NCBI GenBank assembly: GCA_038065395.1 | Contig: JBBTRB010000004.1 | Span: forward strand, 135,178 to 199,177 | Origin: Patescibacteria group bacterium | GTDB lineage: Bacteria > Patescibacteriota > Minisyncoccia > Phycocordibacterales > PALSA-1337 | DNA length: 64,000 bases | Reading direction: 5' to 3' | In this document: positions 3,089 to 63,074 of the stretch, piece after piece | Position numbering within the stretch: the first letter of the stretch is position 1 | Layout of the letters: every line of letters begins with the position of its first letter | Program-made: the position numbers and the translations under genes | The notes under the pieces: model-generated | Told to the model about the DNA's origin: nothing | Databases searched by the model: none | Seen by the model: the letters and a program-made list of their open reading frames with translations, nothing else

Positions 3089-4804
3089 ATGGATCCTCAT
3101 CAACGACTCCGAGCGCGTGGCATACTCATAGGCATTATTCTGACCGCATGCATACTCGGTTTTTCGTTGTATTGGATACAGATCGTTCAGGGCGACACCT
3201 ATAGAGCCAAGGCCAACCTTCAATACGAGAAACCGTCAGCCTATGCACTCGATCGAGGCTCTATCTTCTTCAACTCCAAAGACGGCACTCGCGTCTCAGC
3301 AGCTACGGTCACTCAGGGTTTCGTAGTGCATATGGATCCGACCAAAGTGACTGATATCGAAAGTGAATATCAGGCACTCTCGCATTATATCTACGTTGAT
3401 AAGGATGATTTTGTGCGCAAAGCACAAAAGCCAGGAGATCGATATGAAGAGATCGTAGAACGAGCAGATGCTGACAAGGCGATCGCTATAGCAGAACTCG
3501 GACTTCCGGGAATCGGTATATCCAAGAAGAGTTGGCGGTCATATCCGGGCGGTCAGCTGTCCTCGCATGTGTTGGGATTGATCGGTGAGAACGGCGATGG
3601 TTCTATCGAAGGTCGCTACGGTCTCGAGCGTACCTACGAAGAGATACTCAAACGTACCTCACAGAGTGCCAGTACCAATGTGTTCACACAGATATTCACG
3701 GGTCTGCGTGATACGGTGTTCGGCAGTAGTGGTACCAAACAGGGTGACATCGTCACCACTATCGAGCCAACCGTCGAAGGGTATGTCGAAGGAATACTCA
3801 AAAACATCCAAGCAGAATGGAACTCCGACAGGGTAGGAGCTATCGTGATGGAACCTCGTACGGGTAAGATCGTTGCTATGTCTGCATTGCCGACATTCGA
3901 TGCGGGTAACCTCTCGGGTATCAGTGACGTATCGATACTCTCCAACCCACTGGTCGAGCATGTCTATGAGATGGGTTCGATCATGAAGCCATTGACCATG
4001 GCGATCGGTCTCGATACTGGAGCGATCAAGCCAACCTCTACCTACGAAGACACGGGTACGATGACGATCGGTGACAAGAAGATCTCCAACTATGACGGCA
4101 AGGCGCGCGGCACAACCGTGATGCAAGAAGTTTTGAGTCAGTCGCTCAACCTGGGTGCGGCGACGATCGCTCTCAAAGTGGGGAGTGAAGATTTCAAAAA
4201 ATATTTTGATATGTTCGGCTTTGGGACCAAAACCGGTATCGATCAACCTAACGAAGGTACTGGACTCCTTGATAACCTTGACTCGGCGCTCGATATCGAG
4301 ATCGCAACCGCGGCGTACGGCCAAGGCGTAGCAGTCTCTCCTATTGCGATGACACGTGCCTTGGCGGTTCTAGCCAATGGTGGCTACGCAGTCCGACCAC
4401 ATCTCGTCGAACGTATCGAGTATGCCGACGGCAGTACCACAGAAGTCCCTGTAGAAAAAAGTGATCGTATCCTCGGTCAAAAGGCTGTGGAGGATACGAC
4501 CAAGATGTTGGTCAGAGTCGTCGACACTGCTCTCAAGGGTGGAGATATCAAGATGGAACGTTATACGGTTGCCGCAAAGACGGGTACTGCCCAGATCGCT
4601 GATCCTGAAAATGGCGGATACTACACTGACCGATACTTACACTCATTCTTCGGATATTTCCCTGCATACGATCCACAGTTCATCATTTTCCTTTATCATG
4701 TGAACCCAAAGAACGCTCGTTTCGCTTCTGAGACCCTCACCAAACCTTTCCAAGAGATCAGTCGTTTCCTCATCACGTATTACGACATCCCGCCGGATCG
4801 ATGA
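3089..4804 (+). CDS. ftsI: Penicillin-binding protein transpeptidase (FtsI/PBP3-like)
   Basis: N-terminal TM and the transpeptidase triad SIMK (SxxK), SNY (SxN), KTGTA (KTG). dcw context. Confidence 0.85.
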   Translation: MDPHQRLRARGILIGIILTACILGFSLYWIQIVQGDTYRAKANLQYEKPSAYALDRGSIFFNSKDGTRVSAATVTQGFVVHMDPTKVTDIESEYQALSHYIYVDKDDFVRKAQKPGDRYEEIVERADADKAIAIAELGLPGIGISKKSWRSYPGGQLSSHVLGLIGENGDGSIEGRYGLERTYEEILKRTSQSASTNVFTQIFTGLRDTVFGSSGTKQGDIVTTIEPTVEGYVEGILKNIQAEWNSDRVGAIVMEPRTGKIVAMSALPTFDAGNLSGISDVSILSNPLVEHVYEMGSIMKPLTMAIGLDTGAIKPTSTYEDTGTMTIGDKKISNYDGKARGTTVMQEVLSQSLNLGAATIALKVGSEDFKKYFDMFGFGTKTGIDQPNEGTGLLDNLDSALDIEIATAAYGQGVAVSPIAMTRALAVLANGGYAVRPHLVERIEYADGSTTEVPVEKSDRILGQKAVEDTTKMLVRVVDTALKGGDIKMERYTVAAKTGTAQIADPENGGYYTDRYLHSFFGYFPAYDPQFIIFLYHVNPKNARFASETLTKPFQEISRFLITYYDIPPDR

Positions 4805-4828
4805 TTGTGTCATTCTGTTTCTTTTTTG

Positions 4829-4858
4829 TGTCATCCCCGCGAAGGCGGGGATCCAGGA
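4829..4858 (+). repeat. 30-bp GC hairpin repeat, copy 1 (tgtcatccccgcgaaggcggggatccagga), REP-like
   Basis: Exact copy also at 19848..19877. Exact inverted copy at 4988..5017. Variant at 62599..62625. Confidence 0.8.
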
Positions 4859-4987
4859 TCACTCCCAGTATATAGTCGACTTAGGTTATACGAACAATGA
4901 ACATGATAGGTTCGGCATTTACTTACAGGAGTAGTATCTAATGTTTTGTGGTTGTATAGACATTAAATAAGCAGCCACGCCCTTGCT

Positions 4988-5017
4988 CCTGGATCCCCGC
5001 CTTCGCGGGGATGACAA
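4988..5017 (-). repeat. 30-bp GC hairpin repeat, copy 2 (inverted orientation). Together with copy 1 it forms a perfect 30-bp inverted repeat around a 129-bp spacer
   Basis: tcctggatccccgccttcgcggggatgaca is the exact reverse complement of copy 1. Confidence 0.8.
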
Positions 5018-5048
5018 CCTGTGCTATCTTTATAGGTACTTCATTCCC

Positions 5049-6383
5049 ATGTCCCTGCTCAAGTCCATCATCGTCGCAATCCTCCTTCTGGAAGCCCGTC
5101 TTATTCTGAGGAAATACAAGCCTTTTGTCGTAGCGGTGACCGGTAGTGTCGGCAAGACGTCAACTAAGGACGCTATATTTACCGTACTAACCTCTTCGAA
5201 GATCTGTACTGACCAGAAGATGTGTTATGTCCGTAAGAGTGAGAAAAGCATGAACAGCGAGATCGGTCTGCCACTCTCTATCATCGGTGCGCCCAATGCG
5301 TGGCATAGTCTCTCTGGCTGGCTTGCAAATATCTTCAAGGGCCTGTCTCTCATCGTGACCCGTAAAGAGTATCCGGATTGTCTCGTCCTCGAAGTCGGTG
5401 CGGACCACCCTGGAGATATCAAGAAAGTCGCCCCCTGGTTGCGTCCCGATGTAGCCGTCATCACCAAAGTCAGTAGCACGCCTGTACACGTAGAGTTCTT
5501 CACGTCACCCGAGCAGGTCTTCGAAGAAAAGGCATCTCTCGCTCGTGAGGTCAAGGAGGGTGGGGTGGTGGTCTTGTATGGTGATGATGACAAGACGCTG
5601 TCGATACGAGACATGGTCGCAACTGGCAACCGTTCGGTGATCACTTTCGGCATGTCAGGATCCGCCGAGGTGCGAGGTATTGATGAGCAGGTTATCTATG
5701 AAGAAGTAGGCGGAATGAAAAGCCCAGTCGGTTCGCAGTTCACTCTCGATATAAAAGGTTCACAATCACCCATCACGATCGCAAGAGGTCTGGGCCAAGG
5801 ATATATACAGACGCTTCTCGCCGCCGCCGCAGTCGGTGTTGCTCGTGGTATGAGCAGTGCAGATATAGCAAAGGCTCTCAATGCGTATACCGTCACTCCA
5901 GGAAGGATGAATATCATCGCGGGTATTGCCGGTTCGACGATCATTGACGATACCTACAACTCTTCTCCTGATGCTGCACTCTCGGCACTACAGGCACTCG
6001 GACAGATCGAAACTTCCGGGACCAAGATCGCTATCTTAGGTGACATGATGGAACTGGGCAAATACGCTACTGACGAACATCGCAAGATCGGAGTCGCTGC
6101 TGCCGGTATTGTCGGACGACTCGTCACTGTCGGTCAACGCTCTCGCTGGACTACCGAAGAAGCTCTCAAGAACGGTCTCTCTGCTGACAAGGTGTCTTCG
6201 TTCGATACTGCCGAGCAAGCTCTAGAATATATCAAGCCTCTGATCCAGGCAGGAGATGTGATCCTCGTAAAAGGTTCTCAGTCTGTGCGTATGGAGAAAG
6301 TATCTCGGGCACTCTTGCGTGACGCTGACAAGGCAGGGGAACTTCTGGTGAGACAGGAGAAGGAGTGGCTGGAGAAGAGGTAG
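5049..6383 (+). CDS. murF: UDP-N-acetylmuramoyl-tripeptide--D-alanyl-D-alanine ligase MurF
   Basis: Mur ligase P-loop VTGSVGKTSTKD and C-terminal Mur ligase domain. The ORF-table start at 4983 merely translates the repeat (DPRLRGDD). The likely true start is the ATG at 5049 (MSLLKSI...). Confidence 0.85.
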   Translation: MSLLKSIIVAILLLEARLILRKYKPFVVAVTGSVGKTSTKDAIFTVLTSSKICTDQKMCYVRKSEKSMNSEIGLPLSIIGAPNAWHSLSGWLANIFKGLSLIVTRKEYPDCLVLEVGADHPGDIKKVAPWLRPDVAVITKVSSTPVHVEFFTSPEQVFEEKASLAREVKEGGVVVLYGDDDKTLSIRDMVATGNRSVITFGMSGSAEVRGIDEQVIYEEVGGMKSPVGSQFTLDIKGSQSPITIARGLGQGYIQTLLAAAAVGVARGMSSADIAKALNAYTVTPGRMNIIAGIAGSTIIDDTYNSSPDAALSALQALGQIETSGTKIAILGDMMELGKYATDEHRKIGVAAAGIVGRLVTVGQRSRWTTEEALKNGLSADKVSSFDTAEQALEYIKPLIQAGDVILVKGSQSVRMEKVSRALLRDADKAGELLVRQEKEWLEKR

Positions 6384-6441: not shown

Positions 6442-6513
6442 GGCCCTATCGTCTAATGGCTAGGACGGAGCCTTCTCAAGGCTTAAATCGGGGTTCGACT
6501 CCCCGTAGGGTCA
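6442..6513 (+). tRNA. tRNA-Glu (anticodon CUC)
   Basis: Manual cloverleaf fold: acceptor GGCCCTA/TAGGGTC, D-arm GTCT..GGAC, anticodon stem GAGCC/GGCTT with loop TTCTCAA, T-arm CGGGG-TTCGACT-CCCCG, discriminator A. No encoded CCA. Confidence 0.8.
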
Positions 6514-6884
6514 CAGGTTTTGAGCGAGCACAGCGAGTGAAAAAGCTGTGACCCTAAGCAAAGCGTCTGCACGCTTTGCGTCGGGGAGTCGAAAAGGTTC
6601 TCCCTTATTTTCGACACTCTGAAGCGTAGCGGAAGAGGGGAGAAAATGGGAAACCTGTACTGAAGCTGTAAGCTTCGACTCCCCGTAGGGTCACAAACAG
6701 ATATGAAACGGTTTTCCAGTGCCTGGAATCCTCGTTTACACTTATATTCCAACGTATCTTCTATGATGGTGAGTTCGGAAAAGATTAACTTGATGATTGC
6801 TTCCTTTTCTGTTGGTTTGGCGAAATCATAATATAAACAAACGTTTTTCAAGAGTTCGGAAAGTTTTACTATATCCTTCGTCAT
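6483..6884 (-). CDS. Hypothetical small protein. Only the N-terminal ~60 codons (6700..6884) lie in unique sequence; the rest of the ORF reads through the att-like repeats and the tRNA
   Basis: ORF only. No recognisable motif. Its 3' part overlaps the tRNA and repeats, so the true extent is doubtful. Confidence 0.2.
   Translation of the reverse strand: MTKDIVKLSELLKNVCLYYDFAKPTEKEAIIKLIFSELTIIEDTLEYKCKRGFQALENRFISVCDPTGSRSLQLQYRFPIFSPLPLRFRVSKIRENLFDSPTQSVQTLCLGSQLFHSLCSLKTCDPTGSRTPI
6494..6700. repeat. Cluster of reiterated tRNA-Glu 3'-end fragments (att-like scars)
   Basis: A direct 22-bp exact copy of the tRNA T-arm/acceptor is at 6674..6695. Inverted partial copies are at 6540..6552 and 6579..6597. 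A further partial direct copy lies at 12954..12965. Confidence 0.65.
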
Positions 6885-7745: not shown

Positions 7746-10700
7746 ATGAATTTTTCACTGAATTCCTATATAAAATACTGTTTAGGCTATCTTAGTCTCA
7801 CAAGACCTACAGGATTCAATAGAGGCACTTCAATAGACATAAAAATCCCTCAAGAATATTTCTCCTTAAGTAAACTTACGAACGGTGATACGGACGGGAG
7901 TTTGAGTGAGATTATCAACTTAGACTATTACTACAATACAGACCCGAAGGATGTTACTGAAGAAAACGAAGAAAAGTATAAAAAGGAAAAGGCACTTGCG
8001 CTACAGCTAGATGAAATATACAGCAAAGCGAAAAATGACACTTTCACAAAAGAAACCATATTGCGTTTCGGACGTTTTGATTTTGAAGTACTCGAAGAGC
8101 CTATAGTTGATACAGACGAAGAAGTTTTAGAAACCAAAAAAGACACACCAGTAGAAGAAGCAAAATTGGTATCAAAACAATTTTACCTTTTTTCATTGCC
8201 AGTAAGAATTGATAAGGAAAAAGACAAAAATAATATCGATAAATACACGATTATTCCAGTTGACTTTGAAGTTCGCCTAAACCTTCCTCCACTGTACGAA
8301 ATTTTTAGAACTTACAAAAAAGAAGATTTGGTGTACGAATTTTTAAACGAATATACCAAACTAGAAAGCGAAGGTGGTTTTTCTATTCCAATCCCTTCTG
8401 AAAAAATATTCTTAGACTTATGGCACATTCTTAAGGCAAAATTACGCCTGACTGAAGCAGTTTTTAATGAAAGTTCATTTACTCTTGATGACCTTCGATT
8501 AACTCTTGCCCCAAGAGCAAACTTCTTCTTGGTTGAAGATTTAACAAAGCTAGCGAAAGAAAAAGAGGAGCTTTTGGAAGGTACTTCGCTCTCGGGTTGG
8601 TTTTCTGAAGAAGGTCTAAACGTAAATTCGGATAGTTGTGAAGAAAAATCTCTATATTTTCCATTCCCATATGATAAGTTTCAAAGCGCAACCACTTCTC
8701 TTCTAGGTAATAAGGCTTCAATAATCCAAGGGCCACCAGGAACGGGAAAATCAGAGACTATTTCAAACATAATTTCTCATCTTGCTGTAAATAAAAACAA
8801 GGTTTTGTTCGTAAGTCAGAAACCCCAAGCTCTACGTGTTGTGAAGGATAAACTGAAAACCCTAGGCGTACCTCTTTTATTTGGATATATCCCGAGCGTT
8901 AAATTTGAGCAATCCCAGGATGAAGAGAGCGACACCATATCGTCGCAACTTGCAGCACTCGATACATATGGAGCTTATAAAGGTGTTGTAAAATCATCTT
9001 CTAATCTGAATAGCTTTACTCAAAATTCAGATGTTGTTTTCGATAAAAGAGATAAAATCATCTCCCTTGAAAGAGAGATATTTAGGCTTGAAGAACAGAA
9101 GCGTAACTACGATTTTCTTGACCAATTACCCTCAATAGATGAAGAGAGAATTATAACCGACCTCACGGAAGATTTATTTAGTGCTTATAAAAATATACTT
9201 CACAAAATATCGGCAAATAAAAATCTTATTGAGAATACCCACGACATATCAAAAAAATATAGTTTTGATAAAGAGCTATTTTGCGATAGTACTTTTTCAG
9301 ATTTACTCAAGACTGTATTGGCAGATGTTAAAAAGACTGGTTTCGATAGGTCATTTAAACTTGGAAGGTATATAAATAATCTTAGTAGAAAAATAAGACT
9401 CAAATCTCATCTAGGACAACTACCAAAAGAAATTTATGAAGAAATAGACAGCATATTAAAAAAGGACTCATCGCGGCATAGCGCAACAAAAGAATTGGAG
9501 CAGCTACTCGGTTTCTGTATTTATTGGGAAGCAATACAAGAAAATGAGAAGTTAGAAATATCTTTACAAGAAATCGAAAGTAACTTAAATCTGTCCAGAG
9601 ATGATTTTTCTACAATTTCTTCTTTTTTGAAAGAAAACTCTTTATCAGTATCGGAGCTTGTTGTTAAGCTTTCCGACCGCGCTCTCTTGAATCACAACCA
9701 GCAAAATTTTAGAGAAGATATTTCAACCCTTAAGAAAGAAGTTACGGGTAAAAATCAAATTACAAGGAAAGATATAGTGGCGCAATACCTATCTTCAATA
9801 ATCGAAGACAATATAAAAAATAATGTCTCACAGGTTAAAATATACAGAAAGCTTCAAGAGTTACAGAAAGCTTTTAAAAAATCAAAGAAAGCTTTCAAAA
9901 CTTTCGATAAGTTGAAAAATGACCCGACCAACTTTGAGACAATATTGAACATTGTTCCTGTCTGGATTATGGATTTAGACGATGCAAGTCGTCTTATTCC
10001 TTTAGTCTCAAACATGTTCGATTATGTCGTATTTGATGAAGCATCACAGTGCAATATTGCGTACACAATACCCTCAATGTATAGAGCGAAAAAGGCTGTA
10101 TTTGTTGGCGACCCAGAACAAATGAGAGACAGTACTGTAATGTTTAAATCGAACCAAGCATTTGACCAGCTCGCGAGCCGTTACAAAGTACCAGAGAGTC
10201 TACAAATAAAACCGACGGGTACAGCAGTGCAGTCTGTTTTGGATATTGCTAAAACAAGATTTGGAATACCCAAGATACTTCAATATCACTACCGTTCTCC
10301 GATGGAGTTGATTGGTTTTAGTAATAAGTATTTTTATGAACCGAAAGGCAAACGGCTTATTGCTTTGAATAACAAATATCTTACTTATAAGGATACAAAT
10401 CGGATAATGGTGCTTCATAATATCGAGTACAGCGGTATTGGAGAGATTGGCGATAATACAAACAATGCAGAGGCAGTGAAAGCACTGGAGCTTTATCTAG
10501 ATATGATTAAAGACCCAAAGTATGAAAATAAGAGTTTTGCCATACTCACGTTTTTTAATGACCAAGCAGAGCTAATCCGAAAGGTTTTTGAAGATAACAG
10601 GATTAAAGAAAGTGATAAATTAAAAATTGCTGTAATAGAAGGTATTCAGGGGGATGAAAAAGATATTGTTATATATTCTTTCGTTATTAGGGATGCCGCA

Positions 10701-11261
10701 CAAAAAAGACAGTATCGCCCTCTGACAGGAGAAACTGGAGATATGCAGGCCGATATTAACGCAGGTAGAGTAAACGTTGCTTTCTCAAGAGCAAAGCTTC
10801 AAGTTCACTGTATTATAAGTATGCCTATAGAAAAAATACCTTCAGGTATATGGATAAAGAAATACCTGGAATATGTGAGAGACAACGGTGAGGTATCTGC
10901 TTCCAGATTAACACTTCAAAAATTCGATAGTTACTTCGAGGAAGAATTCTATCATCTTCTTAAAAAGAAGCTTGGTAAGGGCTACACAATTCAAAACCAA
11001 GTCGAAAGTTGTGGCTTTAAAATTGATTTTGTTGCAACTAACACAAGTACTGGAAGACAGTTAGCAATTGAATGTGATGGGCCGACACACTTTAAAGACC
11101 ACATCGACGAGGCATATGGTATTTATGTTGATAGTGATATTCAGAGACAGAGGGTTTTGGAAAGTGCTGGTTGGACATTCTGTAGAATTGGATATTCCGA
11201 ATGGATTGAGAGCGAGGATAATAAAGAAACTATCGTTAAAAACATCAAACTACTGCTTTAA
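7746..11261 (+). CDS. SF1 (Upf1/DNA2-like) helicase fused to a C-terminal DUF559/Vsr-like (PD-(D/E)xK) endonuclease domain, with a ~330-aa N-terminal region. Hhe-like single-protein defence architecture
   Basis: Walker A IIQGPPGTGKSETI, Walker B/motif II YVVFDEASQC, motif VI RVNVAFSRAKLQVH. C-terminus GFKIDFVA...LAIECDGPTHF...QRQRVLESAGWTFCRIGYSEW matches the DUF559/Vsr-like fold signature. Confidence 0.75.
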   Translation: MNFSLNSYIKYCLGYLSLTRPTGFNRGTSIDIKIPQEYFSLSKLTNGDTDGSLSEIINLDYYYNTDPKDVTEENEEKYKKEKALALQLDEIYSKAKNDTFTKETILRFGRFDFEVLEEPIVDTDEEVLETKKDTPVEEAKLVSKQFYLFSLPVRIDKEKDKNNIDKYTIIPVDFEVRLNLPPLYEIFRTYKKEDLVYEFLNEYTKLESEGGFSIPIPSEKIFLDLWHILKAKLRLTEAVFNESSFTLDDLRLTLAPRANFFLVEDLTKLAKEKEELLEGTSLSGWFSEEGLNVNSDSCEEKSLYFPFPYDKFQSATTSLLGNKASIIQGPPGTGKSETISNIISHLAVNKNKVLFVSQKPQALRVVKDKLKTLGVPLLFGYIPSVKFEQSQDEESDTISSQLAALDTYGAYKGVVKSSSNLNSFTQNSDVVFDKRDKIISLEREIFRLEEQKRNYDFLDQLPSIDEERIITDLTEDLFSAYKNILHKISANKNLIENTHDISKKYSFDKELFCDSTFSDLLKTVLADVKKTGFDRSFKLGRYINNLSRKIRLKSHLGQLPKEIYEEIDSILKKDSSRHSATKELEQLLGFCIYWEAIQENEKLEISLQEIESNLNLSRDDFSTISSFLKENSLSVSELVVKLSDRALLNHNQQNFREDISTLKKEVTGKNQITRKDIVAQYLSSIIEDNIKNNVSQVKIYRKLQELQKAFKKSKKAFKTFDKLKNDPTNFETILNIVPVWIMDLDDASRLIPLVSNMFDYVVFDEASQCNIAYTIPSMYRAKKAVFVGDPEQMRDSTVMFKSNQAFDQLASRYKVPESLQIKPTGTAVQSVLDIAKTRFGIPKILQYHYRSPMELIGFSNKYFYEPKGKRLIALNNKYLTYKDTNRIMVLHNIEYSGIGEIGDNTNNAEAVKALELYLDMIKDPKYENKSFAILTFFNDQAELIRKVFEDNRIKESDKLKIAVIEGIQGDEKDIVIYSFVIRDAAQKRQYRPLTGETGDMQADINAGRVNVAFSRAKLQVHCIISMPIEKIPSGIWIKKYLEYVRDNGEVSASRLTLQKFDSYFEEEFYHLLKKKLGKGYTIQNQVESCGFKIDFVATNTSTGRQLAIECDGPTHFKDHIDEAYGIYVDSDIQRQRVLESAGWTFCRIGYSEWIESEDNKETIVKNIKLLL

Positions 11262-11275
11262 ATAATATCTTATTA

Positions 11276-12871
11276 TTGTATATGCCTCTCTTAACAAAAA
11301 CAGACTTTATTTTGTATCGTGAATGTCCAAATAATGTCTGGTTGAAAAGAAACAAACCAGAGGAGTACTGTAAGTTTGAGATTTCTGAATTTGAAAAATC
11401 ACTTGCTGTAATAGGTAATGATGTAGAAGAGTTGGCTCGAGGGATGTTTCCTTCGGGTTATCTTGTGGAGCGGCGAAGTGCTGGCGCACAAGAATTAACT
11501 CAAAAGTTAATTGCTGAAAAAACTCCTGTGATTTTCCAAGCAGTTTTTGCTACTGATAAATGTCTTGCGGCTACTGATGTTTTGCAATGGAATGATTCAG
11601 CCCAGAAATATGATATTTATGAAATAAAGATGTCATCTACGGAAGAGGATGACGAAGAAGAAGTGGAAGAAGGGAAGCCTAAGAAAGTTAATAAAAAGAA
11701 AGAACTCCAGTATGAATATGACCTCGCCTTTCAGGTAAATATTGCCGAGGCATGTGGTGTTCCACTACATAAAAAATACCTTGTTTGTTTGAACCGAGCA
11801 TATGTAAGGAATGGTGAGCTTGATTTTAGACCGAACCAGCTTTTCATTGTTGAGGATAAAACCGACGCAATCGAACTTATGAAAGACGTCGTTGGAGCGG
11901 AGATGTCTCAATCACAAAACTTCCTAGCGGCCACTGCGATGCCTCCCAGCCCTTGTCCTTGCTATTACAAAGGGCGCAACTCGCATTGTACGGCATTTAC
12001 ATACTTAAACCCGACCGTACCCGCATACAGTGTCCATGACTTGAATAGAATCGGAAATAGTAAGAAGTATCTAAAAGAATTACTCGATGAGGGCATTTTG
12101 GAGATTAGCGCTGTTCCTGTTGATGATAGACTTAAGCCAAAGCCCAAGAAAAGTACAGAGAAACCAAGTAAGCCGAAAAAGTTAAACCAAGTCTTAGTTC
12201 ACAAATCTCAAGAGCCTTTAATTGATATTGATTCGATAAAAAATGAACTTGGCGCACTCGTATTTCCACTTTATTTTCTCGATTATGAGACTTATCCGAC
12301 AGCAATTCCTCCTTATAATGGTTATCGACCATATCAGCAAATTGTCTTTCAGTATTCATTACACATCCTGAAAGATAAAGATTCCGAACCGATTTCTTTG
12401 GAATGTTTAATATTAGACGGTGAACCTTCTGAACGTATAGTTAAAAGCCTGCGTGAACATATTGGTGATACTGGAACTGTAATTTCTTGGTTTAAGACTT
12501 TCGAAAACTCTAGAAATCGTGAGCTGGCAACCCTAATACCGAGCCGTAGAGATTTTCTTCTCGGTCTTATTACTCGAACGTATGATTTGATGGATATAGT
12601 AGATGGTCAGCATTACGTACATCCTGGTTTTGAAGGCAGAGCATCAATTAAAAAAGTTTTGCCTGTTATTGCTCCACATCTATCTTATAAAAAACTATGT
12701 GTCCAGAGTGGTACAGATGCAATTGAAGCGTATAGGCAAATAACTAAAGGAGAGTTAACAGGTGAATTAGCCAAAGAAAAGGAGCTTCAAATGCTTGAAT
12801 ACTGCAAGTTGGATACCTACGCCATGTACGTTTTATGGAACTTCTTCAATAAGTTAGTGGATGAAAGTTAA
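11276..12871 (+). CDS. DUF2779-like protein with an N-terminal Cas4/RecB-like nuclease region and a Cys cluster
   Basis: N-terminus KTDFILYRECPNNVWL, central CPCYYKGRNSHC, C-terminal block YFLDYETYPTAIPPYNGYRPYQQIVFQYSLHIL typical of DUF2779. It starts 15 nt after the helicase stop, so is probably co-transcribed. Confidence 0.55.
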   Translation: MYMPLLTKTDFILYRECPNNVWLKRNKPEEYCKFEISEFEKSLAVIGNDVEELARGMFPSGYLVERRSAGAQELTQKLIAEKTPVIFQAVFATDKCLAATDVLQWNDSAQKYDIYEIKMSSTEEDDEEEVEEGKPKKVNKKKELQYEYDLAFQVNIAEACGVPLHKKYLVCLNRAYVRNGELDFRPNQLFIVEDKTDAIELMKDVVGAEMSQSQNFLAATAMPPSPCPCYYKGRNSHCTAFTYLNPTVPAYSVHDLNRIGNSKKYLKELLDEGILEISAVPVDDRLKPKPKKSTEKPSKPKKLNQVLVHKSQEPLIDIDSIKNELGALVFPLYFLDYETYPTAIPPYNGYRPYQQIVFQYSLHILKDKDSEPISLECLILDGEPSERIVKSLREHIGDTGTVISWFKTFENSRNRELATLIPSRRDFLLGLITRTYDLMDIVDGQHYVHPGFEGRASIKKVLPVIAPHLSYKKLCVQSGTDAIEAYRQITKGELTGELAKEKELQMLEYCKLDTYAMYVLWNFFNKLVDES

Positions 12872-13013
12872 TTTATTACAAGTATGGATTCTAGGCTTTT
12901 AATCGAGAAAGCGATAGAATCTCTATATTTAACAAGTTCGGAAAGCCACCCTATAGGGTCACAAAATTTGAATGAACTTATTTTTTTATAACTAATAAAA
13001 ATTTAAAATACAT

Positions 13014-13535
13014 ATGCTCAAAATAAATTTTTATCCTGAAAGTGATCTGAAAGACTTTGCTGAAGCTGTTACTATTTTTGAAAAAATGTGGCAAGAAGAA
13101 GGGGAACGAATCACTGATACGTGGGAACGGGTTACAGGATTGAAGTTCATTGAAACAGAAATAAATGCAGTTGTTGCTGATCTCAAGAGTTGCTCTCACC
13201 CACTTACGTTGAGGTATAGCAATGAATATGATTTCAAGAAATCTACATTGGTACATGAACTCGGTCATCGCATACTATACAGACGGGAAAGTAGTGCTGG
13301 GAACAAAACGACATTTGAGAGACATAAGTTTTTGTTTCTGGTTTTGTACGATGTTTTCTGTGAACTATATGGTCAAGAGTTTACTTATAAAGTTATAGCT
13401 TGGGATAGTAGTCTAGGAAAAGACAAAGGTAGGTCAATGTATGAAGATGCCTGGCAATGGGCATTACAATATAAGACAAAAGAAGAACGACAAAAAATCT
13501 ACAAGGAAATCTTGTCAGGAGAATATGTTTTCTAA
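13014..13535 (+). CDS. HExxH metallopeptidase-like protein, ImmA/IrrE (COG2856)-like
   Basis: Motif STLVHELGHRILY (HELGH) in a ~173-aa protein. AT-rich. Confidence 0.5.
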   Translation: MLKINFYPESDLKDFAEAVTIFEKMWQEEGERITDTWERVTGLKFIETEINAVVADLKSCSHPLTLRYSNEYDFKKSTLVHELGHRILYRRESSAGNKTTFERHKFLFLVLYDVFCELYGQEFTYKVIAWDSSLGKDKGRSMYEDAWQWALQYKTKEERQKIYKEILSGEYVF

Positions 13536-13594
13536 TTTTCGATCTAGTAACTATAAAGTTCCCAACTCTAACTTTAAGTAGTATACTAGTTGGA

Positions 13595-14215
13595 ATGGAT
13601 TCAAAACCTACTGTACGATATGCATTTATAGATGTTCAGAACACTGAAGGGACAGTCAGTCACCTTCTCGGTTTTGTTATTGATTGGCATAAGCTCTACC
13701 ATTACCTCAAAGAACAATGGAATTGCGAAAAGGTATTTTTCTATTCTGGTATTGACCAAGGTAATGAAGATAAAATCGACGAACATCTTGCTCTAAAGAA
13801 TCTCGGTTATGAGATGTCCATCAAACCGTATAAGATATATAAAAATTCCGACAAAATCATTAAAATCATGTGTTCAAAATGCGCGAATGAAATCGACTAT
13901 AAAATTGAAGGTGGTGTCCGATGGAAATCAAATTGTGATGCGGAGCTTTCTGTTGATGCAACAAATCTGGCAAAATCTGGTGCTGAATTTCTGATCTTTT
14001 CAGGAGACGGAGATTTTGAGTGTGTAATAAGGAATGCCGTAGAAAAGGGGGTGAAGGTATACGTGGTCTCCAGCGCACGGAAAGTAAAGACTGGCTTACG
14101 TTACTCTTCATCGAGATTCTCAACCAAACTACGCGAGCTCATTGCTGAGAAACGTGATCTGGTTATTTTCAAAGATATCAATGACTGGAAGATGAGGATC
14201 AAAAAAGATATTTAG
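13595..14215 (+). CDS. NYN/LabA-like (PIN-fold) nuclease-domain protein with an inserted Cys4 zinc-ribbon
   Basis: N-terminal YAFIDVQNT and FSGDGDF acidic motifs typical of NYN domains. Insert CSKCANEIDYKIEGGVRWKSNCD. Confidence 0.55.
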   Translation: MDSKPTVRYAFIDVQNTEGTVSHLLGFVIDWHKLYHYLKEQWNCEKVFFYSGIDQGNEDKIDEHLALKNLGYEMSIKPYKIYKNSDKIIKIMCSKCANEIDYKIEGGVRWKSNCDAELSVDATNLAKSGAEFLIFSGDGDFECVIRNAVEKGVKVYVVSSARKVKTGLRYSSSRFSTKLRELIAEKRDLVIFKDINDWKMRIKKDI

Positions 14216-17535: not shown

Positions 17536-17611
17536 CGTATAAGAGTGTGTAGTGATGTGTAGCTTCATTACTACAGTTACAAAACCTTATTTTTCTGTTA
17601 GTATTTTCCAC

Positions 17612-19822: not shown

Positions 19823-19847
19823 CTTGTGTCGTTTCTGTATATTCTTG

Positions 19848-19877
19848 TGTCATCCCCGCGAAGGCGGGGATCCAGGA
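19848..19877 (+). repeat. 30-bp GC hairpin repeat, copy 3 (solo), immediately downstream of the valS stop
   Basis: Identical to 4829..4858. Confidence 0.8.
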
Positions 19878-20042
19878 TTATGTCACTGAAGTAGTAAATT
19901 CCTCCAGGTGGCGATAGTAACTTTCTCAGTTTCTACTCATACAGGCTAAAGTGACAAGAAAAGTTGTCACTTTAAGGTATTTGGCTCAAAAATGAAAACT
20001 ATATGGGAATCGACTATTAAATTCCATGCTACTATGTAAGCC

Positions 20043-22247: not shown

Positions 22248-22367
22248 GGGCTAGTCCAGGATCTTCACCTGCTTCGTTATTTTCTGCGCTCAAACTCTCA
22301 CCATATACGCGATATGGCTCGAGCTTTCGCTTGAAAATGCCTCGCATCTGAAAGATCCTGGATACGC
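22242..22367 (+). repeat. ~120-bp dispersed repeat, copy A
   Basis: Roughly 85% identical by manual alignment to the reverse complement of 53722..53838. Confidence 0.7.
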
Positions 22368-22440
22368 CCTTATGAGATGCTAGCCATTTTCACTAAAAAT
22401 GCTAGAATGAAGGCACGTTCGGATAGACAGAGTAGTTTCT

Positions 22441-39438: not shown

Positions 39439-39467
39439 AAAATCCCTCAGATATCTGAGGGATTTTT
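39439..39467 (+). terminator. Rho-independent terminator (aaaatccctcaga tatc tgagggatttt)
   Basis: Perfect 13-bp stem plus T-run directly after rplU. Confidence 0.85.
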
Positions 39468-39478
39468 CGTGCTATTTT

Positions 39479-41475: not shown

Positions 41476-41642
41476 GGCGACATTGTATCACGCTGGGCTA
41501 TTCGAACCGCAAGCAGTTCAGGGGAATCCTTGGGGGACAAGATGGGGACATGAAATCCTGGAGGAACTTTTAAAATTCATACGGACTTTAACCTGTTTTC
41601 ATACCTTTTTGAGACTAAATTCATACAGATTTTATCTCTCCC

Positions 41643-53721: not shown

Positions 53722-53838
53722 GCGTATCCACGATCTCCATATGGCAGGCTTATTCAAGCGAAAACTCGAGGCATATCGAGTATATGGTGAGAGTTTGAGC
53801 GCAGAGAATAACGAAGCGGATGGAGATTGTGGACTAGC
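53722..53838 (-). repeat. ~120-bp dispersed repeat, copy B (inverted relative to copy A at 22242..22367)
   Basis: Manual alignment, ~85% identity. Both copies contain a conserved 33-codon ORF (MAGLFKRKLEAYRVYGESLSAENNEADGDCGLA versus MRGIFKRKLEPYRVYGESLSAENNEAGEDPGLA). Confidence 0.7.
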
Positions 53839-53840
53839 TT

Positions 53841-54059
53841 TTATGCAATCTGAAGCTGATTTTCGGTGCGTGATATCCTATGTTCGTGGTCTGGGAGTTC
53901 GACGTCATGGTGCTTGAGGAGCAAGTCGATTTTCTTGAATTCTAGACGAGTTTCTGCTCTGAATTCAGCAAGGTCTCGTGCGGATTCTTTGAAGCCCTTG
54001 TTAACCATAAGTGCAAGGTCATCTAATGTAATAGGATTTTGATTGGATGAAGTATTCAT
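53841..54059 (-). CDS. Hypothetical small protein (72 aa)
   Basis: ORF only. Confidence 0.35.
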   Translation of the reverse strand: MNTSSNQNPITLDDLALMVNKGFKESARDLAEFRAETRLEFKKIDLLLKHHDVELPDHEHRISRTENQLQIA

Positions 54060-60556: not shown

Positions 60557-60731
60557 ATCCTCCCACGAGTGACCGTCCAGAAATGGCCGGTCACTTTCTT
60601 TTTACTCAATTTTTTAATGAACAAAGTGTAATGGTTCACGATTTTCTCAATATTCCCCAAAGTGACAACTTCTTCGTCACTTTACTCTATTTGGTAATAT
60701 CCTGGATTCCCATTTTCATGGGAATGACATG

Positions 60732-61085
60732 CTAAAAAGACGGAGCGCGGGTAGGTTGACTATGTATAATAAATTCTATAGTTGAAAATGGAGAGACTAT
60801 CGGAGTGACGGAAGAGATGTATTCGGTGACGGTGTCATTTTTTGGACATGAGAAAGGCAGGAGGAACTGGTCGGATACGTGTCCTGAACTTGTTGAATGA
60901 TTGCGTGTAGCGAGTGGTTGTGCAGAAACAAGCTGACCTTTGAGTTTTCCTTCAACGAGAGACACCAAGAACACCAGACGGAACTGTCGGCCGGTCTGGT
61001 CGGTGAAGATTTGCTCTATGAATTGTGGTTTATAAGGAGTAAGCATTGAGAGTTTTATATTAAGGCAAAAAAGGCCGGGGGTCAA
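60732..61085 (-). CDS. Hypothetical protein
   Basis: ORF only. Confidence 0.35.
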   Translation of the reverse strand: MTPGLFCLNIKLSMLTPYKPQFIEQIFTDQTGRQFRLVFLVSLVEGKLKGQLVSAQPLATRNHSTSSGHVSDQFLLPFSCPKNDTVTEYISSVTPIVSPFSTIEFIIHSQPTRAPSF

Positions 61086-61180
61086 GAGGCGTAGATTTTA
61101 TCGTTTCTTGAGACTAAATTCATCAGGAATTTATCTCGGGTTGCTAAAGTTTCTGGGCGGAAGATCATATCTTCCGCCGT

Positions 61181-61969: not shown

Positions 61970-62545
61970 CTATTTCTTCCACTCCCCTACCTTCACCTTC
62001 GGCACCTTAATCTCTTTGCCATTGAGTGAATAGCCTTTTTGTAGGACTGCAACGACGGTGTGATCTTGCTTCTCATCCGTCACGGGTTCGTATGAGACAG
62101 CTTCATGTTTTGCATGGTCGAATGGTTGGCCGATCGGGTTGAGTTCTTGGAGACCATTCTCAGTCAATGCTTTTTGCAGTTGAGAATAGATATACTCTAC
62201 TCCTGTGCGCCAGTTCTTGTCTACTTTCTCCCAAGCATCCTTGTTCCCCATCGCCATATCGAAACTCTCCAAAACCGGCAACAGATCTTCGATCAGACGT
62301 TCGTTGGCGAACTTCATAAAGTTCCTGTTCTCCTCCTCGTCACGCTTGCGAGCGTTGACCATGTCGGCCTTGGCGCGTTGCCAGCCTGTCAGGTACTCGG
62401 TCTTCTCTGCTTCGGCTTTCTTGAGCTTTTCGCGGAGTTTCTTGATGGTTTCGGTCATGTTCTCTTCGGCCACGACCGAGTCATCCAATGTGTCGTCGGA
62501 TTCGATAGTAATGTCGTCTTGAGTTTTGAGTTCGTCTTCTTGCAT
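61970..62545 (-). CDS. grpE: Nucleotide exchange factor GrpE
   Basis: Coiled-coil N-terminus. C-terminal GrpE fold block EAVSYEPV...VVAVLQKGYSLNGKEIKVPKVKV. Confidence 0.85.
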   Translation of the reverse strand: MQEDELKTQDDITIESDDTLDDSVVAEENMTETIKKLREKLKKAEAEKTEYLTGWQRAKADMVNARKRDEEENRNFMKFANERLIEDLLPVLESFDMAMGNKDAWEKVDKNWRTGVEYIYSQLQKALTENGLQELNPIGQPFDHAKHEAVSYEPVTDEKQDHTVVAVLQKGYSLNGKEIKVPKVKVGEWKK

Positions 62546-62598
62546 GTGGTTTATTCTAATCTAAAAAGTAAAGATAGCAAATCATACATCTACAACGC

Positions 62599-62625
62599 AG
62601 ATCCCCGCCTGCGCGGGGATGACGT
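62599..62625 (-). repeat. GC hairpin repeat, copy 4 (variant: atccccgcctgcgcggggatgac)
   Basis: One-mismatch relative to the reverse-complement consensus. Intergenic between grpE and rpsI. Confidence 0.7.
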
Positions 62626-62666
62626 GAAATGTGATTTTCCAATTACTAATCTCCAATCTCCTGCGA

Positions 62667-63074
62667 TTAACGCTTACTCCACTGTGGACTCTTGCGAGCT
62701 TTCTTGAAACCGAACTTGCGGCGTTCTTTGGCACGAGGGTCGCGTTTGAGGAAGCCGAGCTTCTTGAGACCGCCACGGAGCTGTACATCGTAGACGAGGA
62801 GGGCGCGGGCGATGCCGAGACGCATGGCTTCGGCCTGACCAGAGACACCACCACCACTGACCTTGACGGTAACATGGAACTTCTCAGCGGCTTTGCCTTG
62901 AGTCATCGAAGCGATCGCGGTAGCCTGCATTTCTGGAACTGGGAAATAGGTTTCGAGCTTCTTGCCATTGACCTCATAGCCTGCCTTGGCATTCGGGAAA
63001 AGACGAACACGAGCGATCGCGGTCTTGCGGCGTCCGACAGCTTCAAAGTATTTGGTTGGGGATTTCGTAGTCAT
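62667..63074 (-). CDS. rpsI: 30S ribosomal protein S9
   Basis: C-terminus RKFGFKKARKSPQWSKR. Confidence 0.9.
   Translation of the reverse strand: MTTKSPTKYFEAVGRRKTAIARVRLFPNAKAGYEVNGKKLETYFPVPEMQATAIASMTQGKAAEKFHVTVKVSGGGVSGQAEAMRLGIARALLVYDVQLRGGLKKLGFLKRDPRAKERRKFGFKKARKSPQWSKR

What the first reader, a model, noticed from the sequence alone, without database searches (positions are those of the whole stretch)
4824..5022. Dispersed 30-bp GC hairpin repeat (4 copies) resembling a type I-E CRISPR repeat in form; one inverted pair flanks a 129-bp spacer between ftsI and murF
tgtcatccccgcgaaggcggggatccagga occurs identically at 4829..4858 and 19848..19877. Its exact reverse complement is at 4988..5017, and a one-mismatch variant is at 62599..62625.

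The core ccccgcg-gaag-gcgggga is a stable stem-loop. Its overall shape (GTGTT-CCCCGCG-NNNN-GCGGGGA-T...) is strikingly like type I-E CRISPR repeats. However, the copies are solitary or inverted rather than arrayed.

All copies sit just outside gene ends (after ftsI, before murF, after valS, after rpsI), like REP/BIME elements. The inverted pair plus its 129-bp AT-rich interior could be a MITE or a small transcript.

Translating the repeat gives DPRLRGDD, which spuriously extends the murF ORF and creates the ORF at 62105..62707.
Basis: seen in the sequence. Interest (0 to 1): 0.6.

Follow-up and report, generated by a model that had tools for sequence, protein, structure and literature searches.

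The report
Known REP hairpin repeat, new host
The repeated GC hairpin belongs to a long-described family of small palindromic "REP" repeats (the CGTC-tagged type, the same kind as the Neisseria dRS3 repeat), here scattered behind housekeeping genes of a tiny groundwater Patescibacteria genome; it is not a CRISPR remnant and is ordinary apart from its host.

Summary
A loop variant lies at 62595-62624 (-). None is expected by chance.

Every feature matches the CGTC-1 family of repetitive extragenic palindromes (Di Nocera 2013): a TGTC/CGTC tag, an 8-bp stem starting with AT, a 4-nt loop and a CCA tail. Neisseria dRS3 and Rickettsia RPE-6 belong to the same family. The same 24-mer occurs in at least 120 genome stretches from more than 10 phyla.

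The inverted pair is a tags-outward ("HH") dimer enclosing a 128-bp AT-rich unit, built like a Neisseria NIME unit or a MITE. A second, 87% identical copy of the whole composite sits at an unrelated locus in the same aquifer metagenome. Two relatives have empty ftsI-murF spacers.

The similarity to type I-E CRISPR repeats is real (an 18-nt identical core), but the window has no array and no cas gene. No RAYT or other transposase was found nearby, so the copying enzyme is still unknown.

Verdict: a new member of a known kind, in a host phylum (CPR) that the 2013 survey does not list.

The parts
4805..4828 (+). T-rich left extension of the repeat unit. It carries a partial direct repeat of the tag region: TTGTGTCAT at 4805 and again at 4826, a 21-nt period. 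It starts right after the ftsI stop codon (4802-4804).
   Evidence: sequence. family D2: 55 nt shared at 84% with 19824-19878; the extension is kept in the second composite copy, L195.
4829..4858 (+). REP copy 1 (CGTC-1 type): tag TGTC, stem ATCCCCGC/GCGGGGAT, loop GAAG, tail CCAGGA. It is the left arm of the tags-outward (HH) dimer.
4859..4986 (.). 128-bp AT-rich interior between the two REPs, comparable to an RS unit of a Neisseria NIME. No ORF, no promoter-like site and no Rfam family.
   Evidence: It is 81% identical to the interior of L195. The whole unit can fold as one long hairpin, -99.8 kcal/mol, z = -8.
4987..5016 (-). REP copy 2, an exact inverted copy and the right arm of the dimer. 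It lies 32 nt upstream of the real murF start (ATG 5049) and creates the spurious TTG-4983 extension of murF.
19824..19847 (+). T-rich left extension with the same 21-nt partial direct repeat (TTGTGTCGT at 19824, TTGTGTCAT at 19845). It starts 1 nt after the valS stop codon (19820-19822).
   Evidence: (D2).
19848..19877 (+). REP copy 3, a singleton with the exact 30-mer, 25 nt after the valS stop and in the valS orientation.
60700..60729 (-). REP copy 4, a variant singleton: TGTC-ATTCCCAT-GAAA-ATGGGAAT-CCAGGA, with the same tag and tail and a compensated stem. It lies 2 nt after the stop of ORF 60732-61085 (-). That ORF has no Pfam hit, so its coding status is unverified.
   Evidence: (D3).
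62595..62624 (-). REP copy 5, a singleton: CGTC-ATCCCCGC-GCAG-GCGGGGAT-CTGCGT. It lies 42 nt after the rpsI stop, in the rpsI orientation, and 49 nt upstream of grpE.
19949..19972 (+). Second palindrome AAGTGAC-N10-GTCACTT, 72 nt downstream of REP copy 3. It may be a second module of the element or an unrelated operator; which is uncertain.
   Evidence: 2 matches in the window against 0 expected.
60660..60682 (-). Second palindrome AAGTGAC-N9-GTCACTT, 17 nt downstream of the tail of REP copy 4, with flanks similar to those at 19949. Same uncertainty as that site.

Best explanation
These are copies of a repetitive extragenic palindrome (REP) of the CGTC-tagged superfamily, family CGTC-1. That is the same family as the Neisseria dRS3 repeat and Rickettsia RPE-6. 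The host is a Patescibacteria (CPR) bacterium.

The unit is a 30-nt single-strand hairpin: tag (C/T)GTC, an 8-bp stem beginning with AT, a 4-nt loop and a tail CCA. In this genome it is copied together with a T-rich stretch of about 20 nt on its tag side. It occurs as singletons just 3' of genes. It also occurs once as a tags-outward (HH) homodimer enclosing a 128-bp AT-rich unit. That composite is itself a multicopy unit, built like a MITE or a Neisseria NIME.

Shown here: family membership, non-random dispersal, presence/absence at orthologous sites, and a second copy of the composite elsewhere.

Inferred: it is non-autonomous selfish DNA copied in trans through its single-stranded hairpin form. 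My estimates for the copying agent:
- about 0.4: a HUH/Y1 (RAYT-like) enzyme;
- about 0.3: another recombinase or an unknown factor;
- about 0.3: the copies are no longer mobile.

Also inferred: because four of the five copies lie in the sense orientation behind a gene, they are probably transcribed into the 3' ends of the ftsI, valS and rpsI messages. There a stable hairpin without a U-tract would act as a 3'-end protector or partial read-through barrier. It would not be a canonical terminator.
For: Match to the family definition:
- The anatomy matches the published CGTC-1 definition feature by feature (definition; sequence).
- dRS3 is ATTCCC-N8-GGGAAT, and the commonest 21-mer of the Neisseria REP is ATTCCCGCGCAGGCGGGAATC. 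This differs from copy 5 only by one compensated pair.

Spread of the same sequence:
- The 24-mer GTCATCCCCGCGNNGGCGGGGATC occurs in at least 120 genome stretches. They include Alpha-, Beta- and Gammaproteobacteria, Fibrobacter, Planctomycetota, Chloroflexota, Bacteroidota, Rhodothermota, Gemmatimonadota, Omnitrophota, Elusimicrobia, Cloacimonadota and two CPR MAGs.
- Across 147 instances, the base before GTC is C in 69% and T in 24%. The tail is CCA in 80%. The loops are GAAG, GCAG, GGAG or GTAG. 47% have a tags-outward partner.
- 216 perfect hairpins of this form were found against 0 in shuffles, with covarying stems.
- The exact 30-mer is in at least 115 metagenome stretches. 75 of 115 have an HH partner, and one spacer class measures 123-139 nt, like the window's.

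Evidence of mobility:
- Three identical 30-mers lie in 64 kb, and copies 1 and 3 share 55 nt.
- L195 carries the whole composite at 86.8% identity, behind an unrelated ORF.
- The orthologous ftsI-murF spacers in relatives are empty: 24 nt in L125 (FtsI 84% identical) and 55 nt in L128 (68%). L124 (86%) holds only a collapsed palindrome with the same termini. No CGTC hairpin was found in about 59 kb of relatives, against 5 in the 64-kb window.

Evidence of transcription elsewhere:
- The same hairpin is part of the RACE- and Northern-verified Francisella sRNA FtrB.
Against: - No RAYT homologue was found. phmmer with E. coli RayT against all six-frame ORFs of the window and about 300 hairpin-centred loci (about 2 Mb) gave a best E-value of 0.33.
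- No protein family recurs next to the hairpins.
- No transposase, integrase or Y1 domain appears among about 60 window ORFs.
- Di Nocera 2013 also found no transposase gene flanked by CGTC repeats. This conflicts with the RAYT link proposed for Neisseria.
- No target-site duplication could be defined.
- Sense-orientation bias in the wider sample is weak: 28 against 15 in unidirectional contexts, using crude ORF calls.
- The genome-wide copy number in the host is unknown, because only this window and short flanks could be read.
- The dimer spacer (140 nt between stems) is longer than the usual 20-100 nt.
Confidence: 0.85

Rival explanations
1. The copies are primarily a host-selected RNA element rather than selfish DNA. 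In this reading the hairpin is kept because, in the mRNA, it ends or protects the ftsI, valS and rpsI transcripts. Alternatively, because its 3' tail reads N-CCA after a 7-8-bp stem, it could mimic a tRNA acceptor minihelix and be a processing site.
For: - Four of five copies lie 2-42 nt after a stop codon in the sense orientation.
- The tail CCA is kept in 80% of 147 instances across phyla.
- Di Nocera 2013 reports that CGTC-1 repeats cluster within 20 bp of 3' gene ends and are plausibly transcribed.
- The hairpin is part of a verified sRNA in Francisella.
Against: - Relatives with 68-84% identical FtsI have short ftsI-murF spacers with no hairpin, so the operon works without it.
- No U-tract follows any copy, and the terminator scan does not call them. 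The same genome does use canonical hairpin-plus-T-run terminators, for example at 1069-1097 and 39442-39471.
- Orientation bias in the broader sample is weak, 28:15.
- Deletion of FtrB gave no phenotype.
- The second arm of the dimer is antisense.
Confidence: 0.25
2. The copies are solitary or degenerate type I-E CRISPR repeats: remnants of an array, or stand-alone repeat units that interact with Cas6e or Cascade.
For: An 18-nt core is identical to a genuine I-E repeat, and some I-E repeats start with a similar GTC/GTG. The hairpin has the same stem and loop length as I-E repeats; this last point rests on my own knowledge of the E. coli repeat GTGTTCCCCGCGCCAGCGGGGATAAACCG.
Against: - There is no direct-repeat array anywhere in the window.
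- The only pair is inverted, with a 128-bp interior that is itself a repeated unit.
- The scanned ORFs include no Cas domain.
- The flanks follow the REP consensus (tag CGTC, tail CCA), not the I-E 3' handle.
- The same sequence is dispersed singly or as inverted dimers in hundreds of loci across phyla.
- A shared 6-7-bp GC stem between two of many hairpin families can arise by chance.
Confidence: 0.03
3. The hairpins are mainly recombination or integration target sites. In Neisseria, dRS3 is the target where filamentous prophages integrate through a phage-encoded transposase/recombinase. In this reading their spread reflects that recombinase rather than transposition of the hairpin itself.
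For: - The literature reports that dRS3 is the integration site of Nf prophages, and a site-specific recombinase acting on dRS3 in NIME arrays has been postulated.
- The composite dRS3-RS-dRS3 architecture is reproduced here.
- The 24-mer occurs in 64 stretches of viral contigs.
- A second window repeat family ends in TCCAGGATC, the same sequence as the REP tail.
Against: - No recombinase, integrase or phage gene lies next to any of the five copies, nor anywhere else in the window.
- No recurrent neighbouring protein appears in about 300 loci.
- The viral-contig hits were not examined and may be host DNA in prophage-like calls.
Confidence: 0.1
4. The copies are an assembly or chimera artefact, that is, a repeat introduced at contig joins.
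For: One short contig (L122) ends exactly inside the first hairpin.
Against: - The pair is internal and identical in two further independent assemblies of replicate samples (L121, L123).
- All five copies are embedded between intact Patescibacteria housekeeping genes.
- The family also occurs in isolate and complete genomes.
Confidence: 0.01

Closest known systems
CGTC-tagged REPs, family CGTC-1 (Di Nocera, De Gregorio & Rocco 2013, PMC3733652)
   Same: The tag is CGTC or TGTC. The stem is 8 bp with A and T in the first two positions. The loop is 4 nt and the tail is CCA. Tags-outward (HH) homodimers predominate. The position is close to 3' gene ends, and no adjacent transposase is found.
   Different: The host is a Patescibacteria (CPR) genome. 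The 2013 survey listed Proteobacteria, Chlorobi, Bacteroidetes, Spirochaetes and Thermotogae. The dimer spacer is 128-140 nt rather than the usual 20-100. A T-rich left extension with a 21-nt partial direct repeat is copied along with the hairpin. I did not find that feature in the sections of the paper I read.
Neisseria dRS3 repeats and NIMEs (neisserial intergenic mosaic elements)
   Same: The 20-bp palindrome ATCCCC-N8-GGGGAT corresponds to ATTCCC-N8-GGGAAT. Two of them, inverted, flank a lower-GC repeat unit of 50-150 bp. Di Nocera classifies dRS3 as CGTC-1.
   Different: Here there is a single dRS3-RS-dRS3 unit plus singletons, not long arrays. The stem differs by one compensated pair. 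NIMEs were described as specific to Neisseria. No surface-antigen genes are involved.
REPIN-RAYT systems (Bertels & Rainey)
   Same: Inverted REP doublets can fold into one long hairpin. The Neisseria REPIN seed ATTCCCGCGCAGGCGGGAATC is the same hairpin family and was linked to a Group 2 RAYT.
   Different: No RAYT was found in the window or in about 2 Mb of hairpin-centred loci. The two arms lie about 139 nt apart, beyond the 130-bp REPIN criterion. Genome-wide copy number is unknown.
Type I-E CRISPR repeats
   Same: The hairpin core is nearly identical. CCCCGCGCAGGCGGGGAT occurs both in copy 5 and in the Corynebacterium ulceribovis I-E repeat, and repeat length (28-30 nt) is similar.
   Different: The copies are dispersed or inverted rather than arrayed. 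There are no approximately 32-nt unique spacers, no cas genes and no I-E 3' handle. The flanks follow the REP tag and tail consensus.
Francisella sRNA FtrB (Rfam RF02748)
   Same: The model consensus contains GUCAUUCCCGCGUAGGCGGGAAUC, which is the same tagged hairpin. This shows that the module can be part of an expressed RNA.
   Different: Only the hairpin module aligns. Scores are 24.5 and 22.9 bits against a gathering score of 66, so these are not FtrB homologues.
MITEs such as Neisseria Correia elements, and E. coli REP/BIME
   Same: These are small non-coding intergenic repeats with terminal inverted repeats. The size is 188 nt, the unit is multicopy, and it can create spurious ORF extensions.
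   Different: No target-site duplication and no parent IS with matching ends could be identified. The terminal repeats are themselves independent REP hairpins.

Membership tests
CGTC-1 REP (Di Nocera 2013) | Unpaired terminal tetranucleotide CGTC (TGTC or CCTC allowed) at one end | tested here: met
   The tag is TGTC in copies 1-4 and CGTC in copy 5.
CGTC-1 REP (Di Nocera 2013) | 8-bp stem whose first two positions are complementary A and T | tested here: met
   The stems are ATCCCCGC/GCGGGGAT in four copies and ATTCCCAT/ATGGGAAT in one. All are perfect.
CGTC-1 REP (Di Nocera 2013) | 4-nt loop (families 2-4 have 5 nt) | tested here: met
   The loops are GAAG in three copies, GCAG in one and GAAA in one.
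CGTC-1 REP (Di Nocera 2013) | Short unpaired tail, mostly CCA | tested here: met
   The tail is CCA(GGA) in four of five copies and CTG in copy 5. It is CCA in 80% of 147 instances elsewhere.
CGTC-1 REP (Di Nocera 2013) | Many dispersed, mainly extragenic copies per genome, near 3' gene ends | tested here: inconclusive
   There are five extragenic copies in 64 kb, four of them 2-42 nt after a stop codon. The rest of the host genome could not be read, so the copy number is unknown.
REPIN-RAYT system | Two REPs in inverted orientation within 130 bp | tested here: not met
   The 21-nt seeds at 4833-4853 and 4992-5012 lie about 139 nt apart. The pair still folds as one hairpin.
REPIN-RAYT system | A cognate RAYT (Y1/HUH transposase) gene, itself flanked by the REP | tested here: not met
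   No Y1_Tnp hit appears among about 60 window ORFs. phmmer with E. coli RayT gave a best E-value of 0.33 over the window and about 2 Mb of loci. The whole host genome was not testable.
Neisseria NIME | 20-bp dRS3 inverted repeats (6-bp ends, 8 central bases) flanking a lower-GC RS unit of about 50-150 bp | tested here: met
   ATCCCC-N8-GGGGAT flanks a 128-bp AT-rich unit on both sides. The RS-like unit recurs in L195.
Neisseria NIME | Long arrays of several dRS3 separated by different RS units | tested here: not met
   The window has a single unit, and the other three copies are singletons.
CRISPR array (type I-E) | Direct repeats of 28-29 nt regularly interspaced by unique spacers of about 32 nt | tested here: not met
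   The repeat and tandem-repeat scans found no such array. The one pair is inverted and 128 bp apart.
CRISPR array (type I-E) | Associated cas genes (cas3, cse1/2, cas7, cas5, cas6e, cas1, cas2) | tested here: not met
   No Cas domain appears in the Pfam scans of window ORFs. The rest of the genome was not testable.
MITE | Terminal inverted repeats, 70-300 bp, non-coding, multicopy | tested here: met
   The terminal repeats are 30-33 nt and the unit is 188 nt (pair I3). A second copy is 86.8% identical over 204 nt in a different context.
MITE | Target-site duplication, and a parent IS with the same ends | tested here: inconclusive
   The flanks show no direct duplication. The empty sites in relatives are too diverged to define the junction. 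No parent IS was found in the loci searched.
Intrinsic terminator | GC-rich hairpin immediately followed by a T/U run | tested here: not met
   The tails are CCAGGAT or CTGCGTT. The scan calls no terminator at the REP hairpins.
FtrB sRNA (RF02748) | Score at or above the Rfam gathering threshold (66 bits) | tested here: not met
   The scores are 24.5 and 22.9 bits, and only the hairpin module aligns.

The most novel reading that the evidence does not exclude
Exact 24-30-mers of this hairpin are conserved across more than 10 phyla. They have also expanded recently in a roughly 1-Mb CPR genome where no RAYT is in sight. Together these could mean that CGTC REPs are copied or maintained by something other than a dedicated REP transposase. 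Candidates are a widely shared host nucleic-acid enzyme or a promiscuously transferred recombinase. The near-identity of the hairpin to type I-E CRISPR repeats could then reflect common descent, or recognition by related hairpin-binding proteins, rather than chance.
Probability: 0.08. Interest if true: 0.7.

Novelty: new member of a known kind. Interest (0 to 1): 0.3.

Why it matters
Practically, the repeat explains two mis-annotations: the spurious N-terminal extension of murF, and the shadow ORF 62105-62707. It also explains why assemblies break at this point (L122).

Biologically, it extends a named REP family into the Candidate Phyla Radiation, whose genomes are very small. What copies CGTC-tagged REPs has been an open question since 2013: the survey found no dedicated transposase, while a RAYT link was proposed for Neisseria.

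This lineage offers a tractable comparison. One small genome has apparently recent copies, and sister lineages have empty sites and no hairpins in the regions seen. Only a short list of genes can differ between them.

The element itself is otherwise ordinary.

Tried and rejected
- **Literature search by encoded peptides.** Searching for the peptides the repeat encodes (IPAFAGMT, VIPAKAGIQ, PRLRGDD and others) found nothing. Searching for the DNA strings gave the lead.
- **RAYT search.** E. coli RayT was run by phmmer at maximum sensitivity against all six-frame ORFs of the window and all fetched loci. No hit was found.
- **Recurrent neighbouring genes.** All-against-all BLASTP of ORFs of at least 100 aa around the hairpins showed only low-complexity frames and unrelated housekeeping families.
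- **Orientation relative to genes.** In 120 genome loci the count was 28 sense to 15 antisense. The crude ORF calls in GC-rich DNA placed 56 hairpins "inside" ORFs, so I treat this as inconclusive.
- **Viral contigs.** There were 64 hits, several on 15-20-kb contigs with 5-7 copies. I did not follow them up. They may be prophage- or GTA-like host regions.
- **Window interior against all loci.** BLASTN matched only L195.
- **Rfam.** Nothing reached gathering thresholds, and only sub-threshold FtrB hits appeared at permissive thresholds.
- **Promoter and terminator scan of 4600-5200.** Nothing was found inside the element.
- **Second palindrome.** A MAFFT alignment of the three REP-downstream regions did not align it convincingly.
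Full report
**1. The observation.** The 30-mer TGTCATCCCCGCGAAGGCGGGGATCCAGGA is exact at 4829-4858 (+) and 19848-19877 (+). The core with one loop substitution (GCAG for GAAG) is at 62602-62618 (-). The full unit there is 62595-62624, and it reads CGTC-ATCCCCGC-GCAG-GCGGGGAT-CTGCGT. Shuffles of the window give 0.00 expected matches for the 30-mer and 0.12 for the core.

It has the same tag and tail and three compensated stem pairs. All five fold as an 8-bp stem with a tetraloop, at -10.2 to -19.5 kcal/mol.

Pfam confirms the flanking genes:
- ftsI, 3089-4804;
- murF, whose real start is ATG 5049, giving 444 aa as in the relative L124;
- valS, 17552-19822;
- rpsI, 62667-63074 (-), followed by grpE.

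The peptide DPRLRGDD is encoded in the spurious murF extension and in the shadow ORF 62105-62707.

The pair is present and identical inside contigs of two further independent assemblies. A third contig breaks inside the first hairpin, which is typical of repeats. It is not an artefact.

**2. What it is.** The hits come from very different bacteria:
- many Sphingomonadales and other Alpha-, Beta- and Gammaproteobacteria;
- Fibrobacter, Planctomycetota, Chloroflexota, Bacteroidota, Rhodothermota and Gemmatimonadota;
- Omnitrophota, Elusimicrobia and Cloacimonadota;
- two CPR MAGs (Moraniibacteriota and Wolfebacteria).

A full-text search for the DNA string led to two bodies of literature. Di Nocera et al. 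2013 define "CGTC-tagged" REPs. These have an unpaired CGTC at one end (often TGTC), an 8- or 9-bp stem whose first two positions are A and T, a 4- or 5-nt loop, and a short tail that is mostly CCA. Family CGTC-1 has the 8-bp stem and the 4-nt loop. It includes the Neisseria dRS3 repeat and Rickettsia RPE-6. Every one of these features is met by the window copies.

In Neisseria, dRS3 (ATTCCC-N8-GGGAAT) flanks 50-150-bp lower-GC "RS" units to form NIMEs. Bertels and Rainey describe the commonest Neisseria REP 21-mer as ATTCCCGCGCAGGCGGGAATC. It has 241 copies, forms REPINs and is linked to a Group 2 RAYT.

**3. Family statistics from the fetched loci.** In 147 instances from the genome scan:
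- the base before GTC is C in 69% and T in 24%;
- the tail is CCA in 80%;
- the loops are GAAG (50%), GCAG (31%), GGAG (12%) and GTAG (6%);
- 47% have an inverted partner with the tags outward, Di Nocera's "HH" type, with spacers of mostly 12-101 nt;
- only 7 have a tags-inward partner.

Perfect hairpins of the form GTC-AT-N6-N4-N6'-AT number 216 in these loci, against 0 in 20 shuffles. The stems are ATCCCCGC (154, the ascertained one), ATTCCCGC (49), ATGCCCGC (5) and several single compensated variants. The non-ascertained stems keep the CCA tail in 49 of 62 cases.

75 of 115 have an HH partner. The median spacer is 36 nt, and a second class measures 123-139 nt, which includes the spacing seen in the window.

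**4. The host and the evidence for mobility.** The window's FtsI is 100% identical to an NCBI protein of a "Patescibacteria group bacterium" MAG, found on contigs up to 761,713 nt. The nearest relatives are labelled Paceibacterota, Parcubacteria or Minisyncoccia. Record names point to samples called Hain_H41_02um.

Orthologous ftsI-murF spacers were fetched from relatives:

| Source | FtsI identity | ftsI-murF spacer |
|---|---|---|
| Window | 100% | 244 nt, containing the element |
| L124 | 86% | compact palindrome with the same termini (TGTGTCGTCCCCG...CGGGGATGACA) |
| L125 | 84% | 24 nt, empty |
| L128 | 68% | 55 nt, empty |
| L126/L127 | 72% | an unrelated long palindrome after ftsI (in L126 the next gene is not murF) |

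None of these roughly 59 kb holds a CGTC hairpin, against five in the 64-kb window.

Inside the window, copies 1 and 3 share 55 nt at 84% identity, starting at the stop codon of the upstream gene. A 1.6-kb contig from the same aquifer, L195, carries a second copy of the entire composite: 204 nt at 86.8% identity, with the interior 81% identical. It lies behind an unrelated 181-aa ORF and near a gatC-like gene. Homology starts in the T-rich stretch left of the tag and stops sharply after GATGACAA.

So the inverted pair plus its interior is a multicopy unit, MITE-like or NIME-like. It can fold as one long hairpin with a 30-bp perfect base, at -99.8 kcal/mol and z = -8.

**5. How it probably works.** Shown here: a structured, tagged hairpin, dispersed, polymorphic between relatives, and duplicated with its flanks. 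The rest is inferred.

The hairpin-plus-tag design is that of elements handled as single-stranded DNA by HUH/Y1 enzymes (RAYTs, IS200/IS605). That is the mechanism proposed for GTAG REPs and, by Bertels and Rainey, for the Neisseria version.

Against it, I found no RAYT homologue in the window or in about 2 Mb of hairpin-centred loci. I also found no protein family recurring next to the hairpins, and no transposase, integrase or Cas domain in about 60 window ORFs. Di Nocera likewise found none. A RAYT is normally single-copy, so this is weak evidence. The complete host genome is needed.

My estimates are about 0.4 for a trans-acting HUH-type enzyme, 0.3 for another recombinase or factor, and 0.3 for copies that are no longer mobile.

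For the host, four of the five copies lie 2-42 nt behind a stop codon in the sense orientation. They have no U-tract, and the terminator scan does not call them. The genome does have canonical hairpin-plus-T-run terminators elsewhere. The likeliest effect is therefore a 3'-end protecting hairpin or a partial read-through barrier between ftsI and murF, not a canonical terminator.

The module can be expressed. The Rfam model of the RACE- and Northern-verified Francisella sRNA FtrB contains GUCAUUCCCGCGUAGGCGGGAAUC. The window matches it only below threshold, at 24.5 against 66 bits. In the broader sample the sense bias is weak: 28 to 15, with crude gene calls.

**6. The CRISPR idea.** The resemblance is real. 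Published type I-E repeats include GTGTTCCCCGCGCAGGCGGGGATGAGCC (Corynebacterium ulceribovis) and GTCGTCCCCGCGCAGGCGGGGGTAATCCG (Propionibacterium acidipropionici). The first shares 18 consecutive bases with copy 5.

The defining CRISPR features are nonetheless absent. There are no arrays and no cas genes. The only pair is inverted around a repeated 128-bp unit. The flanks obey the REP tag and tail consensus.

With many REP families and many CRISPR repeat families in existence, one shared 6-7-bp GC stem is not improbable by chance. I could not test common descent.

**7. Novelty and verdict.** This is an already named repeat family in a host group not listed by the 2013 survey. The paper library also holds no relevant paper pairing "repetitive extragenic" with Patescibacteria; the single hit was an unrelated plant-microbe study. 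I rate it a new member of a known kind, of low to moderate interest.

The open points are the following:
- what copies CGTC REPs;
- why exact 24-30-mers persist across phyla;
- the partial direct repeat of the tag and left arm 13-23 nt upstream. This is seen in 21% of instances against 1% in a control window. It appears in both sense-strand copies 1 and 3 of the window with a 21-nt period, and sometimes as identical tandem units. It may be a footprint of the copying mechanism.

Noticed in passing
window 4805-4828 and 19824-19847; also L003, L012, L025, L050, L074, L200, L280, L287: A partial direct repeat of the REP tag plus left arm lies 13-23 nt (mode 21) upstream of the full hairpin. It is sometimes present as 2-3 identical tandem units of the form [GTCATCCCCGC + 7-10 pyrimidine-rich nt]. 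It occurs in 31 of 147 instances against 2 of 147 in a control window. It may be a footprint of the copying enzyme or of hairpin-induced slippage. I did not find it described in the sections of Di Nocera 2013 that I read.
   Followed up: partly
window 22250-22375 (+) and 53738-53860 (-): A second repeat family of about 125 nt, 83-86% identical between the two copies. Each copy lies just outside a gene end. It folds into one long hairpin (-47.9 kcal/mol, z = -4.8). Its termini, GTCCAGGATCTTCA...TGAAAGATCCTGGAT, share TCCAGGATC with the tail of the REP copies. No Rfam match.
   Followed up: partly
window 19949-19972 and 60660-60682: The palindrome AAGTGAC-N9/10-GTCACTT occurs twice against 0 expected. 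Each copy lies downstream of a singleton REP, with similar flanks (TAAAGTGAC...GTCACTTTRRGG). It could be a second module of the element, or an operator upstream of the EamA-family gene and of the dnaK region.
   Followed up: partly
window 7746-14215: A low-GC island (34-38% against about 47-50%) next to tRNA-Glu (6442-6514). It encodes a 1171-aa SF1 helicase (AAA_11/AAA_12) fused to a DUF559/MTES_1575 restriction-endonuclease-like domain, a DUF2779 protein, an unknown 173-aa protein and a NYN-domain protein. It looks like an acquired nuclease or defence island.
   Followed up: no
window 41597-41638 and 61096-61137: A 42-nt direct repeat (79% identical) upstream of dnaB and of ORF 60732-61085, both on the minus strand. 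It may be a shared promoter or leader motif.
   Followed up: no
L126 11717-11806 and L127 3873-3962: In a relative whose FtsI is 72% identical, the 3' end of ftsI carries a different long perfect palindrome: AAACCCCGGCATACATGCAAAAAGTGAAA...TTTCACTTTTTGCATGTATGCCGGGGTTT. L124 has a collapsed REP-like palindrome at the same site. The ftsI 3' end appears to be a hot spot for palindromic insertions in this lineage.
   Followed up: no
L226, L267, L248, L210, L199, L252, L219, L302, L245 (metagenome contigs, 32-40% GC): A conserved heterodimer of about 80 nt recurs in many unrelated low-GC contigs: the exact 30-mer, then a spacer close to AAAATTAAGATAGCCA, then CTGGATTCCCGCCTTCGCGGGAATGACA. It is a compact REPIN-like form of the same family with a conserved spacer.
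   Followed up: no
viral contigs L136/L139/L160, L144/L151, L158, L163/L174, L191: Several IMG/VR contigs of 15-20 kb carry 5-7 copies of the 24-mer. They may be prophage- or GTA-like regions of REP-rich hosts rather than free phages.
   Followed up: no
L006 (Rhodopseudomonas pentothenatexigens) and L109: The hairpin also occurs in tandem arrays. L006 has six copies with a period of about 310 nt on one strand. L109 has full hairpins repeated with a 36-nt period.
   Followed up: no
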